Source: Candidatus Heimdallarchaeota archaeon (GTDB lineage: Archaea > Asgardarchaeota > Heimdallarchaeia > JABLTI01). Taken from it: a DNA stretch of 24,740 bases. The notes below the pieces were generated by a model. That model was given only the letters and a program-made list of their open reading frames with translations. It did not search any database and had not been told where the DNA came from. The stretch is taken from the NCBI GenBank assembly GCA_030614005.1, contig JAUWKS010000047.1, positions 1 through 24,740 of the forward strand, given 5' to 3'. Shown one piece after another: positions 14,877 through 19,453 of this stretch (the stretch's first letter is position 1; every line of letters begins with the position of its first letter). Both the position numbers and the translations under genes were made by a program.

Positions 14877-16049
14877 TCATTTTGAAGCTTTACAGATGTT
14901 TTCCATTACAGAATCAACCATGAAATCTTTAGAGGCTTTCCACTTTTTGTCCTTTGTATCGAATGTTTGATCCCATAAAGCATAATTCTTTGAAAATTTA
15001 TGGTCAATAATAAAGAGATTATGTTGAAGACATATTTCAAGCATGAAATCATTTAGTTCAGAAAGATGTTTTGGTGGTGCTCTTACATACCAAAGAAAAC
15101 CATTCTCAGCAATAAAAAAGAGACCTGAAAAAGGAAAAACGGGATTTTCTTGATCTATTGGAATATTATTTTTTATTGAATTTGCATATTGTTCTTGATT
15201 TTTATAAAGATAATTTCGGAGCTTTCTAGCAATATCAACACCACAGTTTCCTCGAAATATAATTGTTTGATAAAGATCAAAGGCAGAATGATTTAATGAG
15301 AGTCGGTAATTTATGATAGCATTTTCTTTAAGGAACGCTACTCTTCTTCCAATCTTCTGTTTGACCCCTGCTTCGTTTTTAATATCGAGATTTTTCATCA
15401 TTGTGGTATTCTTTCTTTTTCCATCAATGGTTAGTTGAGACAATAATTGTATATCTTGCACAGTTAATTCGCTTAGAATTTTCCTCGAATTAGGTTTATT
15501 ATTTATAGATTCAGTGTTATTTTTTAGAAAGCCTTTCCTCCAATTTTCCCAATTAAAATTCCAATTGTGGGTATTGGAATCCCAACTACTAATTGCAGAC
15601 TCAACATAAACAGTTTTTTCATCCCTATCTCGCTCAATATATTCGTAATGTTGAATTATTCCTTTCTTTCCCAATAATTCAGCAATTTCTTTTAGATATT
15701 TTAACGCACCTTTTGGAGTCCTAAATTGAATATAAAGGCCTGAGAAATAACCATTGCAACGACCTCTATAAATCACATAAGGATGATAATAGCAAAATAC
15801 CTCTTCTAGAAGTTTTAATGATTTTCTTGACTTTACCTTAAAGAAGAAATCATGTATTTCCAATTCAAGCGCTTCTAGATTCAAATCTGCAATCACATTT
15901 TGAAAAACACTCATTTCATGTAAAAGACGATTTATTCTATCAATGGTACCAGAAATACTCATATCGATTTGTTCTGCGATAGAACTTGCAGTTGCTAAAG
16001 GATTTGATTGAATAGTAAGTAATATTTCAATATCTTTGCTATCCAGCAT
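14877..16049 (-). CDS. Lrp/AsnC-like transcriptional regulator with two wHTH+effector modules
   Basis: N-terminal LDSKDIEILLTIQSNPLATASSIAEQIDMSISGTIDRINRL; second module LTVQDIQLLSQLTIDGKRKNT...RRVAFLKENAII; AGGTG RBS. Confidence 0.8.
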   Translation of the reverse strand: MLDSKDIEILLTIQSNPLATASSIAEQIDMSISGTIDRINRLLHEMSVFQNVIADLNLEALELEIHDFFFKVKSRKSLKLLEEVFCYYHPYVIYRGRCNGYFSGLYIQFRTPKGALKYLKEIAELLGKKGIIQHYEYIERDRDEKTVYVESAISSWDSNTHNWNFNWENWRKGFLKNNTESINNKPNSRKILSELTVQDIQLLSQLTIDGKRKNTTMMKNLDIKNEAGVKQKIGRRVAFLKENAIINYRLSLNHSAFDLYQTIIFRGNCGVDIARKLRNYLYKNQEQYANSIKNNIPIDQENPVFPFSGLFFIAENGFLWYVRAPPKHLSELNDFMLEICLQHNLFIIDHKFSKNYALWDQTFDTKDKKWKASKDFMVDSVMENICKASK

Positions 16050-16124
16050 TTCTCAAAGCACCTTTTTTACATTGTTACCTCTTTTTTTCAAAGTTGAATT
16101 AGAGTTACTAATTTAGTCAATCAA

Positions 16125-16610
16125 TTACTTAACAGTAATATTTATAGTTGGTTCTCCAGTTCCAGGATTTTCATCCGGTGGATCAAACGTTATATCCCTT
16201 TTTTGCAACATTATTTGACCATCTTCTAGGAAAAACAAACCTTCAATTTCTGCATTGTACCAACCAGGTTCTGTAGCAGTATTAAATGCAGTAATGATAA
16301 ACACAACACCATCATCTGATTCAGCGCAAACTGTAGCAGAAAAGTGATGAACAAAACCTGATGGGAGAGTTATATCAATTTTCAAATTGGAAATTATCAA
16401 TCCTTCGTAATCAGTATCAATAGTAGCAATTATCCTTATATCGTCCTCTATTCGATCTGAGTCAAAATTACCATAGTAAGCATCAACTATTTTGAATTTG
16501 AAATAATCATAAGAATCATCAGCTCTTACGGTATTCAATTGCAGAATGCCTAAACTTATAATTATTAGTAAAAAGGTAATTGAAATAAACCTTTTTTGAT
16601 TTTTTTTCAT
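16125..16610 (-). CDS. Small secreted beta-rich protein, function unknown
   Basis: Start moved to ATG 16610 (GGAGA RBS); MKKNQKRF + hydrophobic core + VRA cleavage site; acidic mature part ending FDPPDENPGTGEPTI. Confidence 0.75.
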   Translation of the reverse strand: MKKNQKRFISITFLLIIISLGILQLNTVRADDSYDYFKFKIVDAYYGNFDSDRIEDDIRIIATIDTDYEGLIISNLKIDITLPSGFVHHFSATVCAESDDGVVFIITAFNTATEPGWYNAEIEGLFFLEDGQIMLQKRDITFDPPDENPGTGEPTINITVK

Positions 16611-16691
16611 TTTAATTTCTCCAATAAACATCTGCTAATATTTATGTCGTCATCCTTAATATCTTTTTCAGTCAGTATTTATATATAAATG

Positions 16692-16752
16692 AAAAAAGTC
16701 CATAAGACCTATCGACATTGAAGGGAGAAAGAGAGGAGGATATGCGATAGGT
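16692..16752 (-). terminator. 3' hairpin (11 bp, 23-nt pyrimidine loop) plus U6 tract directly after the zinc-ribbon gene
   Basis: ACCTATCG at 16707-16714 and CGATAGGT at 16745-16752 are a perfect inverted repeat, extended by CAT/ATG after a 1-nt bulge; A6 on the plus strand at 16692-16697. Confidence 0.6.
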
Positions 16753-17021
16753 TCAGAAAACCGAATTGACTATTTTTGGCCTAAATTCATATTGTTTTCG
16801 CGAATCTCTCGCAGCACAGGCAACAATTTCTGTTCGGTTGTTGTAAGAAACTGTTAAACCACACTTTGGGCAGCATATATTGATGTGTAGGGTACATTCA
16901 GCTTTCCTGTGATCTATGACGGGTGGCGTGGTTGAACCGCAAATAGCACATTCAGTTCCCCAATATTCCTGAACAACGAATTTTATTTGTCTTCGTTTTT
17001 TTCCCATCGTTCATATCCTCC
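16735..17021. repeat. Inverted repeat flanking the zinc-ribbon ORF (arms 16735-16751 and 17003-17021)
   Basis: GGAGGATATG at 16735-16744 and CATATCCTCC at 17012-17021 form a perfect 10-bp match, extended by 7 more pairs after a 2-nt bulge; one pair is G-U only on the minus strand. Confidence 0.8.
16753..17007 (-). CDS. Small basic zinc-ribbon protein, possibly a divergent Elf1-like transcription elongation factor
   Basis: Strong GGAGG RBS 9 nt before ATG; MGKKRR N-terminus, CAIC-x22-CPKC. About 40% GC by hand count, higher than the surroundings. The Elf1 likeness is inference. Confidence 0.75.
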   Translation of the reverse strand: MGKKRRQIKFVVQEYWGTECAICGSTTPPVIDHRKAECTLHINICCPKCGLTVSYNNRTEIVACAARDSRKQYEFRPKIVNSVF

Positions 17022-17287
17022 GGATGTATAAGAGTTTGAGTTTCCACATATATTCAAATCTCACTTCTCTATTAGTCAGAAGTTCAATCTAGATATATAC
17101 ACTATACTTTTGTTTTTTATTGTTTAAATACTTTATCCTTTTTTTTGGTATATTTATAAATAAAACTGTAAAAAGTCCACAACGTAATTTTCACTTTTTT
17201 TAAACAAAATAGTAAACTTGAAAAAGGTATTTTTGTAAATTAGAGGAAAAATAGGTAAGAAAAAAACATAAAAGATAGGTTATTGAA

Positions 17288-19453
17288 CTATGCTAAAGAA
17301 ACAATTATATCATTAACCATATTCGATAATATTTTCTCATTTTCTTGACTCAATGTTATAGTTCCACTATAAATTTGTTTTAATTCATCCCACAAATGTT
17401 CATTTAACTTAATTTTAGCATCAATTTTTGCAAGTTTCTGTAAAGCAGAAAAAGATTGCCCTTTGAAAATATAGCATAATAAATATGATTCTATATTGTT
17501 AATTATTATGGTGTAGTCATTGTGTTTTATTCTGTTTATCGGACCTGTTGCAGAGAAAGCTTCTTTGGCAAAAATATTGATTGCAGAAAGAAAACCACTC
17601 AAAAGTGAGTCATCTAGTTCCCCTTTCAGTATAAAATTCTTGGAATAGATTGGCATCCCTGTTGATTTTAATAACATGAACATCACAGGTTCTTCCGGAG
17701 GAAACTGTATATCCAATCCTTTATCTCGATAAAGTTTCATAAAGAACTCTTCAATATCTGCTGTTTCTAATATTTCAGGAAGTGGTGCATCTTTTGTAGA
17801 AAGTTTTTTCCATATTTCTAATTGTTCGAGCAATTTATCATGATCAATTGAAATTTTCATTGCTAATTGATCAATTCCCCATTCTTCAGCAATGCTTTGA
17901 GCTTTCGTTAAATATTCTCGAGCACTTCGTATATTTAATTCTATCAATGCAATTTGTGAAAGTAACCAATAGCTTTCTGCGTAAATTATCATTGAATGCT
18001 GATTATGGGCGACATCAAGAATGTTATTTGCTAAAGATTTTACTTCACCCAGCAATTCCTTATTGTTAGTTTCTTTTAATTCATTAATTTTTAATTCGCA
18101 GAGGTTTAGCATTGCATCAATTTTATAATCTGTATCAAAATTATCGCATGCAATAATTTCTTCTAAATATTCTTCCGCTTTCGCTCTATTCTTTACTCGA
18201 TCACTTTTCATTAACAATAACGCAGTTGCTAGTTTTGTTTTAATGTTGATTAATGGTTCATCTGATTCTAAATTGATTTGTTTTAGTAACGCTAATTTTT
18301 CCTTAGCTTGTTCCAGATTGTTTTTTATCAAAGCTGTTGATATATAATTAAGGAGAGTCGTTGAGTTGAATCCATTATTTGTAATTTGATCCATCATATT
18401 TATTGCTAATTGAAAATTGAGTAGAGCTTCCTCGAATCGTCCTTTTAATTTGTAAACTTTTCCAAGCTGATTAAATGAGTTCATAATATTCTGGATATTG
18501 CCAATTTCTTGAAAAGAAGCTAAACTTTTTCTAAAATATTCTTCGGCTTTTTCTAAATCACCCATTCTAAGATTTAGTAACCCAATATTATTATATGTTC
18601 GAGCAATTATTCCTTTATTTCCTATTTCATTTTGATATTCCAAAGATTTTTGGTAGCAGTCTTCTGCTTCTCTAAGTTTTCCATCATAATTATAAATAAT
18701 TCCGAAGTTGTTCAATAATCTACCAATGAAATCCTTATTGCCAATTTTCAAATAAATATCGTAGCTCTTTTGATAATATTCTTGAGCCTTTTCTCTCATC
18801 CCTTTGTATAAATAAAATGTTCCAATTTCTTTCAAAGTGTATGCTTTTCCAGGTAAATCCTGTATTTCATTTTGTATTTCTAGTGCTTTATTCATGTTAG
18901 TAAAAGCTAACTCTTTTTTATTGACATAAAAATAGTTCATTCCTAATAAACTCAAAGTTTTAGCTACTTTTCTCATATTTTCTATTTTTTCAAATTCCAG
19001 CAGTATATTTTGATAAATGACTATTGCATCTTCTCTTATTCCCTTGGTTGAAATAATATTTCCTTTAAGTAATAGCAAATTTCCTTTTCTTAAAATCACT
19101 TCATCAGAATTTTTATCTGGTAAATTGTTAAGAATTTGTTCTCCTTTGTATACTTGCTTCAGAATTTCATCTATTCTTCCGTAAACTTCTAAAAATGAAA
19201 TATATAAAACTAGGACATCTAATTCTAATAATGGATATACTTTGAGTAGTGGTTGTTTTGCTAGCCCTAAATTTAATTCTAGTCCTTTTCTAAATCTACC
19301 AAAACCAAAAAGTGCTTCGCATTTGAGGATTTTTATTTCGAGAATTTCTTTTTCAGTTAATTCAATTCCATCTATTATCTTCTGAATTCGAGTTAAAGCT
19401 TCATTGTAATTGCCATTTAGCATCAGCTTTTTAATTTCAACAAGATAATCCAT
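17288..19453 (-). CDS. TPR-repeat protein with a C-terminal longin/roadblock-like domain
   Basis: TPRs such as IARTYNNIGLLNLRMGDLEKAEEYFRKSLAS and IGRLLNNFGIIYNYDGKLREAEDCYQKSLE; tail PVMFMLLKSTGMPIYSKNF...DDSLLSGFLSAINIFAKEAF...INRIKHNDYTIII...LLCYIFKGQS. Start taken as ATG 19453; ATG 19480 is possible. Confidence 0.85.
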   Translation of the reverse strand: MDYLVEIKKLMLNGNYNEALTRIQKIIDGIELTEKEILEIKILKCEALFGFGRFRKGLELNLGLAKQPLLKVYPLLELDVLVLYISFLEVYGRIDEILKQVYKGEQILNNLPDKNSDEVILRKGNLLLLKGNIISTKGIREDAIVIYQNILLEFEKIENMRKVAKTLSLLGMNYFYVNKKELAFTNMNKALEIQNEIQDLPGKAYTLKEIGTFYLYKGMREKAQEYYQKSYDIYLKIGNKDFIGRLLNNFGIIYNYDGKLREAEDCYQKSLEYQNEIGNKGIIARTYNNIGLLNLRMGDLEKAEEYFRKSLASFQEIGNIQNIMNSFNQLGKVYKLKGRFEEALLNFQLAINMMDQITNNGFNSTTLLNYISTALIKNNLEQAKEKLALLKQINLESDEPLINIKTKLATALLLMKSDRVKNRAKAEEYLEEIIACDNFDTDYKIDAMLNLCELKINELKETNNKELLGEVKSLANNILDVAHNQHSMIIYAESYWLLSQIALIELNIRSAREYLTKAQSIAEEWGIDQLAMKISIDHDKLLEQLEIWKKLSTKDAPLPEILETADIEEFFMKLYRDKGLDIQFPPEEPVMFMLLKSTGMPIYSKNFILKGELDDSLLSGFLSAINIFAKEAFSATGPINRIKHNDYTIIINNIESYLLCYIFKGQSFSALQKLAKIDAKIKLNEHLWDELKQIYSGTITLSQENEKILSNMVNDIIVSLA

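What the first reader, a model, noticed from the sequence alone, without database searches (positions are those of the whole stretch)
16735..17021. Fold-back RNA: the 3' UTR can mask the gene's own Shine-Dalgarno and start codon
On the minus-strand mRNA, the sequence just after the stop (CCUAUCGCAUAUCCUCC, 16751-16735) pairs with the translation initiation region (GGAGGAUAUGaaCGAUGGG, 17021-17003). The duplex is 17 bp with a 2-nt bulge and covers the whole SD and AUG. One pair is G-U on this strand but would be A-C on the other, which favours an mRNA structure over a DNA repeat. This recalls 'fold-back inhibition' in bacterial type I toxin mRNAs (hok; aapA in Helicobacter), where full-length mRNA is silent until the 3' end is processed. 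I do not know of this arrangement on an archaeal zinc-ribbon gene. A weak local stem (AUCC-GGA-GGAU) also covers the SD.
Basis: partly seen in the sequence, partly recalled or inferred. Interest (0 to 1): 0.75.

Follow-up and report, generated by a model that had tools for sequence, protein, structure and literature searches.

The report
Gene-spanning RNA clamp hiding ribosome site
In a small zinc-ribbon gene of uncultured Heimdall (Asgard) archaea, the stretch just after the stop codon pairs with the gene's own ribosome-binding site and start codon, and relatives keep the pairing through many matching changes, so the finished mRNA most likely folds shut to limit its own translation.

Summary
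On the minus strand, 17021-17003 (SD, spacer, AUG) pairs with 16751-16735, which starts 1 nt after the stop. That gives 10 bp, a 2-nt bulge, then 7 bp with one G-U, at -27 kcal/mol.

It is the strongest pairing between a start region and its own 3' tail among about 3400 genes of this genome. The null expects 0.1 such case per genome.

Comparison with relatives decides it:
- Five distinct close orthologues keep the duplex through compensatory and wobble changes.
- A lineage about 50% identical in protein has a different 16-bp perfect arm in the same place after its stop. Fourteen of 17 positions hold a different pair there.
- A third lineage masks its start region with a 23-bp duplex from inside the distal coding region.
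- One well-supported subclade and 16 paralogue loci lack the clamp.

In folding models, 82-99% of the start region is paired to the 3' arm. The tail raises the cost of opening the start region from 7 to 16 kcal/mol.

My reading is a conserved cis-acting translational clamp. It works like S. aureus icaR 5'/3'-UTR pairing and like hok/aapA1 fold-back. It is not a type I toxin module: the product is a basic, non-hydrophobic Cys4 zinc ribbon.

No transcript 3' ends or translation data exist. This scan has reported similar clamps before in phage and Saccharibacteria DNA.

The parts
17003..17021 (-). 5' arm: SD GGAGG(A) at 17021-17016, spacer, start codon AUG at 17007-17005 and the first bases of codon 2
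   Evidence: Sequence. Paired in the MFE, centroid and alignment consensus folds. The SD position matches the genome-wide SD peak.
16735..16751 (-). 3' arm (anti-SD/anti-AUG). It starts 1 nt after the stop codon and contains CCUCC at 16739-16735.
   Evidence: Single copy in the genome. Co-varies with the 5' arm in orthologues.
16753..17007 (-). CDS of the 84-aa Cys4 zinc-ribbon protein (stop TGA at 16755-16753)
   Evidence: Orthologues with invariant W16, C20, C23, C46, C49. The AF2 model shows an N-terminal helix plus a three-stranded zinc ribbon.
16950..16963 (-). 5' strand of a second predicted long-range helix (codons 15-19) that stacks on the clamp
   Evidence: MFE and RNAalifold consensus. 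It is rich in G-U pairs, lies in conserved coding sequence, and has only one-sided changes and some breaks. Support is weak.
16753..16766 (-). 3' strand of the second helix (last four codons plus the stop codon)
17047..17099 (-). 5' leader hairpin, probably at the very 5' end of the mRNA
   Evidence: Kept in close orthologues; L006 has a different inner stem sequence.
17121..17133 (-). AAAGTATTTAAAC, a probable BRE/TATA element that predicts a transcription start near 17100
   Evidence: Conserved upstream of the gene in all lineages, including L043. The function is inferred from the usual archaeal TATA-to-start spacing.
16707..16752 (-). Alternative local 3' hairpin (11 bp, -10.9 kcal/mol) that shares 16742-16752 with the clamp
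   Evidence: L005 has a different local hairpin on the CCUCC part. In L017, L016 and L006 the local hairpins are weak or different, so a conserved switch is not established.
16723..16734 (-). CU-rich tract UCUCUUUCUCCC directly after the arm; it holds a second CUCC
   Evidence: Invariant in the five close orthologues. Similar tracts follow the arm in L043 and L007.
16692..16697 (-). U6 tract, the first oligo-U after the gene and the likely archaeal termination signal. It lies downstream of the 3' arm.
   Evidence: Sequence. In every lineage the arm precedes the first T5+ run. Termination there is inferred.

Best explanation
The mRNA of this small zinc-ribbon gene carries a selected, cis-acting clamp. 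A 17-nt segment beginning 1 nt after the stop codon base-pairs with the SD, spacer and AUG of the same transcript. Once the transcript is complete and free of ribosomes, the initiation region is buried in a duplex of about -27 kcal/mol and initiation is strongly disfavoured.

The arm is the last part to be transcribed. Any ribosome that reaches the stop codon must also unwind it. Translation is therefore expected to be confined to nascent or already-translating mRNAs, which would keep output of this protein low.

What is shown: the complementarity, its rarity in the genome, its maintenance by compensatory evolution in three lineages, and its dominance in the thermodynamic ensemble.

What is inferred: that the transcript includes the arm, that the duplex forms in vivo, that it lowers translation, and how it is reopened. 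Reopening could be co-transcriptional loading, ribosome passage, 3' trimming or a trans factor.
For: 1. Rarity. The gene ranks 1 of 3413 genes for start-region versus own-3'-tail duplex energy. The null gives 3e-5 per gene.

2. Close orthologues. There are five distinct sequences (window/L020/L021, L005, L017, L016, L006). The pair at 3' position +10 is U-A in the window and A-U in the other four. The middle pair is C-G, U-A, A-U, A-U or absent. L017 changes one G-C to G-U. Only a terminal pair is lost, in L006. RNAalifold keeps the helix.

3. L043 (about 49% aa identity) has AAGAGGAAAATATCTA pairing with TAGATATTTTCCTCTT, 16 bp perfect, starting 2 nt after TAA. The energy is -25.4, reached by 0 of 300 shuffles. 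At 3' positions +2..+18, 14 of 17 pairs differ on both sides from the window's pairs.

4. L007 (another genus) has a 23-bp duplex at -29.6, reached by 0 of 300 shuffles. It covers SD and AUG, and its arm lies inside the distal CDS.

5. Cognate arm pairs beat non-cognate pairs across lineages by 5-15 kcal/mol.

6. In the ensemble, 82-88% of the start region pairs with the 3' UTR in the five close orthologues, and 99% with the distal CDS in L007. The opening cost is 14-19 kcal/mol with the 3' UTR and 7-10 without it. Against 236 small SD-led genes of this genome, the cost is 16.5 versus 7.6 +/- 2.8. The tail's contribution of +9.8 is the largest of all (mean 0.0 +/- 1.2).

7. The SD mechanism is used genome-wide, and this SD sits at the normal distance.

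8. Precedent. In icaR, 3'-UTR/SD pairing blocks initiation (PMC3868564). Distant anti-SD-like sequences pair with the RBS in vivo in B. subtilis (PMC12697547).
Against: There are no transcript-end, structure-probing or translation data. The only RNA contig found is from a relative, covers 16887-17048 plus the leader, and says nothing about the 3' end.

The clamp is not universal in the family. L008 and L044 lack it, and L009 and L045 are only marginal. It is therefore dispensable for the gene.

The sample is small: seven distinct clamp-bearing sequences from three lineages. The five close ones share ancestry.

Folding energies are for 37 C and for naked RNA at equilibrium. The gene list used for the null is crude ORF calling.
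Confidence: 0.65

Rival explanations
1. The duplex is a selected RNA structure, but its main role is not repression. One option is that it closes the mRNA to protect it from nucleases. Another is that it places the stop codon beside the start codon, so that terminating ribosomes re-initiate on the same ORF.
For: In two lineages the arm begins 1-2 nt after the stop codon, in the same register. A second long-range helix extends the closed structure. Termination-reinitiation is documented in archaea for adjacent genes (PMC6728339). A 5'/3'-UTR interaction stabilises B. subtilis hbs mRNA (PMC5737220).
Against: The paired bases are exactly the SD and AUG. These must be single-stranded for initiation, so occlusion is the direct consequence. 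In L007 the arm is 50-74 nt upstream of the stop, so stop/start juxtaposition is not conserved. The duplex does not involve the mRNA termini.
Confidence: 0.15
2. It is a hok/aapA1-like type I toxin module. The full-length mRNA is inert, 3' processing removes the arm, and an antisense RNA controls the activated form.
For: Small gene, with a fold-back that hides the SD. The mechanistic parallel is to the full-length aapA1 and hok mRNAs (PMC5416894, PMC9841398).
Against: The product is 84 aa with a basic N-terminal helix and a Cys4 zinc ribbon, and has no hydrophobic segment. It sits in a conserved three-gene chromosomal module with a signal-peptide protein and an HTH regulator. No antisense evidence exists. 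In L007 the arm is coding, so 3' trimming would destroy the ORF.
Confidence: 0.05
3. It is a DNA-level inverted repeat, such as protein-binding half-sites, recombination sites of an invertible segment, or ends of a small mobile element.
For: Two inverted copies flank a 250-bp gene.
Against: The arm is unique in the genome. Synteny is stable across genomes. The metagenome contigs laid on the region show no joints or inverted forms. G-U pairs are conserved (one in the window, two each in L017 and L007), and these would be A.C mismatches on the other strand. Bulges break the register of any repeated site. In other lineages the arms have completely different sequences, yet each still matches its own SD and AUG.
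Confidence: 0.05
4. It is a chance complementarity in one ancestor that close relatives passively inherited, and it has no function.
For: The genome-wide expectation is 0.1, which is not negligible. The five close orthologues are 79-98% identical in protein.
Against: Compensatory changes occur within the close clade. The independent sequences of L043 and L007 are each reached by 0 of 300 shuffles. Arms are specific to their cognate partners. None of 16 paralogue loci shows such pairing.
Confidence: 0.07

Closest known systems
S. aureus icaR mRNA 5'-UTR/3'-UTR pairing (Ruiz de los Mozos et al. 2013, PMC3868564)
   Same: A 3'-UTR segment of the same mRNA base-pairs with the SD region. In icaR this blocks formation of the initiation complex.
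   Different: This case is archaeal. The arm abuts the stop codon, whereas icaR's lies deep in a long 3' UTR. The duplex is 17-24 bp and also covers the AUG, whereas icaR uses a UCCCCUG motif. icaR's duplex is an RNase III substrate; no nuclease is known here. There is no experimental evidence here.
hok (tac/fbi) and H. pylori aapA1 full-length mRNA fold-back (PMC9841398, PMC5416894)
   Same: A long-distance 5'-3' interaction keeps the complete mRNA of a small gene untranslatable. The inhibitory partner is transcribed last.
   Different: In hok, the fbi element pairs with the 5' end and the SD is hidden by another element; here the arm pairs with the SD and AUG directly. Those systems encode hydrophobic toxins with antisense antitoxins and are activated by 3' processing. 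None of that is seen or testable here, and the protein is a zinc ribbon.
Long-range anti-SD-like sequences pairing with the RBS in B. subtilis mRNAs (Gill et al. 2025 preprint, PMC12697547)
   Same: Pyrimidine-rich CCUCC-like sequences hundreds of nucleotides downstream pair with the RBS and repress. The L007 lineage has its arm inside the CDS.
   Different: That work reports such sequences as depleted from natural genes. Here one is maintained by selection and extended to match the gene-specific spacer and start codon.
Haloarchaeal 5'/3'-UTR-dependent translational control (Brenneis and Soppa 2009, PMC2636863)
   Same: Archaeal mRNAs whose 5' and 3' UTRs must act together for translational regulation.
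   Different: That interaction was shown functionally, with no base-pairing model, and Haloferax largely does not use SD in 5' UTRs (PMC3986360). Here an explicit SD-masking duplex is predicted, but its function is untested.

Membership tests
icaR-type intramolecular 3'-UTR/SD pairing | A 3'-UTR segment complementary to the SD region of the same mRNA | tested here: met
   17 bp at -27 kcal/mol, covering SD and AUG. It dominates the ensemble.
icaR-type intramolecular 3'-UTR/SD pairing | Complementarity maintained in relatives | tested here: met
   Compensatory changes in the close clade, and different cognate arms in L043 and L007.
icaR-type intramolecular 3'-UTR/SD pairing | Pairing prevents formation of the initiation complex and lowers protein output | not testable with these tools
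   Only computed opening costs are available: 16.5 versus 6.7 kcal/mol without the tail.
icaR-type intramolecular 3'-UTR/SD pairing | The duplex is cleaved by a double-strand-specific RNase | not tested
   No search for such nucleases and no RNA-end data.
Type I toxin-antitoxin (hok/Sok, aapA1/IsoA1) | Small hydrophobic membrane-active toxin peptide | tested here: not met
   84 aa with a basic N-terminal helix, Cys4 zinc ribbon and no hydrophobic stretch. There is a weak Foldseek resemblance to archaeal RNase P protein Rpp21.
Type I toxin-antitoxin (hok/Sok, aapA1/IsoA1) | Full-length mRNA closed by a long-distance interaction that hides the SD | tested here: met
   Predicted only.
Type I toxin-antitoxin (hok/Sok, aapA1/IsoA1) | Antisense RNA antitoxin, and activation by 3' processing | not testable with these tools
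   The one RNA contig is unstranded and covers only the 5' part.
Archaeal bulge-helix-bulge processing stem (circularisation) | Two 3-nt bulges on opposite strands separated by a 4-bp helix | tested here: not met
   The window has a single 2-nt bulge on one strand. L043 has none in its 16-bp helix.
Invertible segment or mobile-element terminal inverted repeats | Multiple copies, or both orientations present in populations | tested here: not met
   The arm is unique in the genome. The four runs laid show no joints. Synteny is conserved.
Rfam RNA families | Match to a curated covariance model | tested here: not met
   No match at E <= 1 in 16500-17400.

The most novel reading that the evidence does not exclude
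The clamp is a ribosome-gated closed loop. The arm starts 1-2 nt after the stop codon, so each terminating ribosome itself unzips the duplex and exposes the SD and AUG for the next round. An mRNA that is being translated then stays open, and one that loses its ribosomes locks shut. That would be a translation-history switch, and a base-paired forerunner of mRNA circularisation in the archaeal lineage closest to eukaryotes.
Probability: 0.15. Interest if true: 0.85.

Novelty: new variant of a known kind. Interest (0 to 1): 0.62.

Why it matters
Base-pair-level examples of an mRNA's 3' end silencing its own ribosome-binding site are few: icaR and some type I toxin mRNAs. I found none described for archaea.

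Here comparative evidence is strong for such a clamp in Heimdallarchaeia, a group with almost no experimental RNA biology. It shows that SD occlusion by a distal, gene-specific anti-SD operates in Asgard archaea. It also gives a compact element of about 400 nt for studying how archaeal ribosomes deal with structured initiation sites.

It flags the orphan zinc-ribbon protein as something the cell keeps under tight translational control. That protein sits in a conserved module with a secreted protein and an HTH regulator.

The element is easy to test with compensatory mutants in heterologous reporters.

Tried and rejected
- **Rfam.** Scan of 16500-17400: nothing.
- **Bacterial-type terminators.** None, as expected for an archaeon.
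- **Multicopy repeat or TIR.** The arm is unique in the genome at up to 3 mismatches.
- **General habit of this genome.** Rejected. The distribution of own start-region/3'-tail energies equals that of mismatched pairs (mean -9.3 for both).
- **Paralogous small zinc-ribbon genes.** Sixteen loci, none with a significant fold-back (z from -1.3 to +2.2).
Not conserved.
The hairpin is real in the window at -10.9 kcal/mol. Orthologues have different or weak local hairpins, so a conserved switch is not established.
- **BHB or circularisation motif.** Absent.
- **Protein function.**
  - Pfam gave only sub-threshold hits.
  - NCBIfam found nothing.
  - The PDB sequence search found nothing significant.
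  - Foldseek's best hit was E 0.06, to Rpp21.
  - The Atlas returned only unnamed clusters.
- **RNA evidence.**
  - One metatranscriptome contig (X14) from a relative, about 94% alike, covers 16887-17048 plus 56 nt upstream.
  - It does not reach the 3' arm and cannot show transcript ends. The uncovered parts are not evidence either way.
- **More sequences.**
  - The first metagenome scan found nothing.
  - DNA for P0006, P0008, P0012, P0014, P0016 and P0017 could not be fetched.
  - A class-wide genome search added no new loci.
- **The count of structure pairs.** Not used, because it needed a long typed structure string. Pair counts were made in a script instead.

Full report
**What is there**

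The window comes from a 3.6-Mb, 126-contig MAG. Its closest public relatives are labelled Candidatus Heimdallarchaeota. The stretch occurs in marine-sediment and cold-seep metagenomes.

On the minus strand, an 84-codon ORF (17007-16753) encodes a protein with a basic N-terminus and two CxxC pairs. GGAGG lies 14 nt before the AUG. In this genome GGAGG peaks at -16..-12 and GGTGA at -12..-9 upstream of predicted starts. The organism therefore uses Shine-Dalgarno initiation, and this SD is at the normal distance.

The segment 17021-17003 pairs with 16751-16735 as 10 bp, an AA bulge and 7 bp including one G-U. The 3' arm starts one nucleotide after the stop codon.

**Is it more than chance?**

RNAfold places the duplex in both the MFE and the centroid structure of 16690-17100.

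I called about 3400 ORF-based genes in the whole genome. For each I computed the duplex energy of its start region (-22..+10) against its own stop..+50.
- This gene ranks first at -27.0 kcal/mol; the next is -22.1.
- The overall distribution is indistinguishable from that of mismatched gene pairs. Fold-back is therefore not a habit of this genome.
- Among 136,472 mismatched pairs, 4 reach -27. That is 3e-5 per gene, or 0.1 expected per genome.

That result is suggestive on its own. The comparative data decide the matter.

**Relatives**

The protein family is tiny. It occurs in 6 of 12 genomes of one family-level lineage and in none of 70 other genomes of the class. A few metagenome contigs add to it.

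*Close clade.* There are five distinct sequences: window/L020/L021, L005, L017, L016 and L006. They share 79-98% protein identity with the window. The arms differ, yet they stay complementary.
- One pair is U-A in the window and A-U in the other four.
- The pair next to the bulge is C-G, U-A, A-U or A-U, and is absent in L005.
- L017 turns one G-C into G-U.
- Only a terminal pair is lost, in L006.
- RNAalifold keeps the helix.

*L043.* This metagenome contig encodes a protein about 49% identical. It has a quite different SD and spacer. A perfect 16-bp complement starts 2 nt after its stop codon, at -25.4 kcal/mol, reached by 0 of 300 shuffles. Compared by position after the stop, 14 of 17 pairs differ on both sides from the window's pairs.

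*L007.* This locus comes from another genus. It masks SD and AUG with a 23-bp duplex at -29.6 kcal/mol, reached by 0 of 300 shuffles. Its arm lies inside the distal coding region.

*Specificity.* Each start region pairs much better with its own arm than with the arms of other lineages.

*Members without the clamp.* A well-supported subclade (97/96) comprises L008, L044, L009 and L045, plus two proteins whose DNA could not be fetched. In the four with DNA the clamp is absent or marginal. Sixteen loci of paralogous small zinc-ribbon genes show nothing.

The simplest history is that the clamp is old in this gene family, was maintained by compensatory evolution, and was lost once.

**RNA or DNA?**

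Several points favour a sense-strand RNA structure over a DNA repeat.
- The arm is single-copy.
- Gene order around it is stable.
- The metagenome contigs show no rearranged forms.
- G-U pairs are conserved or newly arisen, and bulges are asymmetric.
- There is no bulge-helix-bulge motif and no Rfam match.

**Predicted consequence**

In partition-function folds of modelled transcripts, 82-88% of the start-region bases pair with the 3' UTR in the close clade. In L007, 99% pair with the distal CDS.

Forcing -15..+6 open costs 14-19 kcal/mol with the 3' UTR and 7-10 without it.

I compared this with 236 other small SD-led genes of the genome.
- Their opening cost is 7.6 +/- 2.8 kcal/mol; this gene's is 16.5.
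- The contribution of its 3' tail (+9.8) is the largest of all (mean 0.0 +/- 1.2).
- Without the tail, the gene's start region is average at 6.7.

In every lineage the arm lies before the first oligo-T run, the usual archaeal termination signal. The transcript should therefore include it, although this is inferred.

A conserved AAAGTATTTAAAC box (17133-17121) predicts a transcription start near 17100. The mRNA would then begin with a conserved hairpin at 17099-17047. A metatranscriptome contig from a relative reaches about that point. A contig cannot define transcript ends.

**Mechanism**

The best-supported reading is cis translational occlusion. The completed, ribosome-free mRNA hides its SD and AUG in the clamp.

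The arm is transcribed last, and a ribosome approaching the stop codon must unwind it. Translation would therefore be limited to nascent or actively translated molecules. This part is inference.

A local 3' hairpin that competes with the clamp exists in the window at -10.9 kcal/mol. It is not conserved in the same form. I do not claim a switch.

**Comparison with known systems**

The clamp works like icaR (PMC3868564). It resembles the fold-back of the hok and aapA1 full-length mRNAs (PMC9841398, PMC5416894).

It is not a type I toxin module by the defining feature I could test. The protein is a soluble-looking helix plus zinc ribbon, with AF2 pLDDT 67 and a weak Rpp21-like Foldseek hit.

Long-range anti-SD pairing has recently been shown to act in vivo in B. 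subtilis (PMC12697547). In archaea, 5'/3'-UTR cooperation is known only functionally, from haloarchaea (PMC2636863). My searches found no Asgard or archaeal example at base-pair level.

Earlier reports of this scan describe similar clamps in phages and Saccharibacteria. I did not check them.

**Verdict**

The mRNA fold-back reading is supported by covariation in three lineages. Function in translation remains to be shown. I class it as a new, archaeal, stop-codon-adjacent variant of a known kind of regulation.

Noticed in passing
window 17179-17151 and 16702-16674 (minus strand): A TGGAC(T/A)(T/A)TTT motif followed within about 25 nt by a TATA-like box occurs upstream of the zinc-ribbon gene and of the next gene (a signal-peptide protein of about 165 aa). 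Only two other, apparently unrelated, sites in the 3.6-Mb genome match. It is also seen at the orthologous loci. It may be a shared operator for a dedicated regulator, perhaps the adjacent HTH_24 protein.
   Followed up: partly
window 14877-17007 (minus strand); L016, L044, L045: A conserved three-gene module: the 84-aa zinc ribbon, a protein of about 165 aa with an N-terminal signal-like segment and no family, and an HTH_24/AsnC-type protein of about 380 aa. The module recurs in distant family members.
   Followed up: partly
window 17047-17099 (minus strand): A 5' leader hairpin is conserved in close orthologues. L006 has a different inner stem sequence (TTCTGAAG/CTTCAGAA versus ACTTCT/AGAAGT). 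It probably sits at the 5' end of the mRNA.
   Followed up: partly
window 16723-16734 (minus strand): A CU-rich tract (UCUCUUUCUCCC) with a second CUCC lies directly after the 3' arm. It is invariant in the five close orthologues, and similar tracts follow the arm in L043 and L007. Its role is unknown; it could be a spare anti-SD or a protein site.
   Followed up: no
window 17012-17014 (minus strand): An out-of-frame AUG lies inside the 5' arm, 2 nt after GGAGGA, and opens a 20-codon frame. Orthologues have AAG there, so it is probably not used.
   Followed up: yes
L008 (G005:C55), locus positions 1495-1665: The syntenic homologue in a genome of the same genus has a TTG start and an in-frame TAG that ends the ORF at 57 aa. 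Weak similarity continues beyond the stop. It belongs to the clamp-less subclade.
   Followed up: partly
G000:C8:41286-41492 and G000:C1:44781-44969: The same genome holds at least two other families of small Cys4 zinc-ribbon genes distantly related to this one, each conserved across the genus. None has a fold-back.
   Followed up: partly
window 16887-17048: A marine-sediment metatranscriptome run (X14) has a 218-nt contig (depth 71) from a relative about 94% alike. It covers the leader, the start region and the first 40 codons. Its 5' arm reads GGAGGATAAGACTGATGGG, a further variant.
   Followed up: partly
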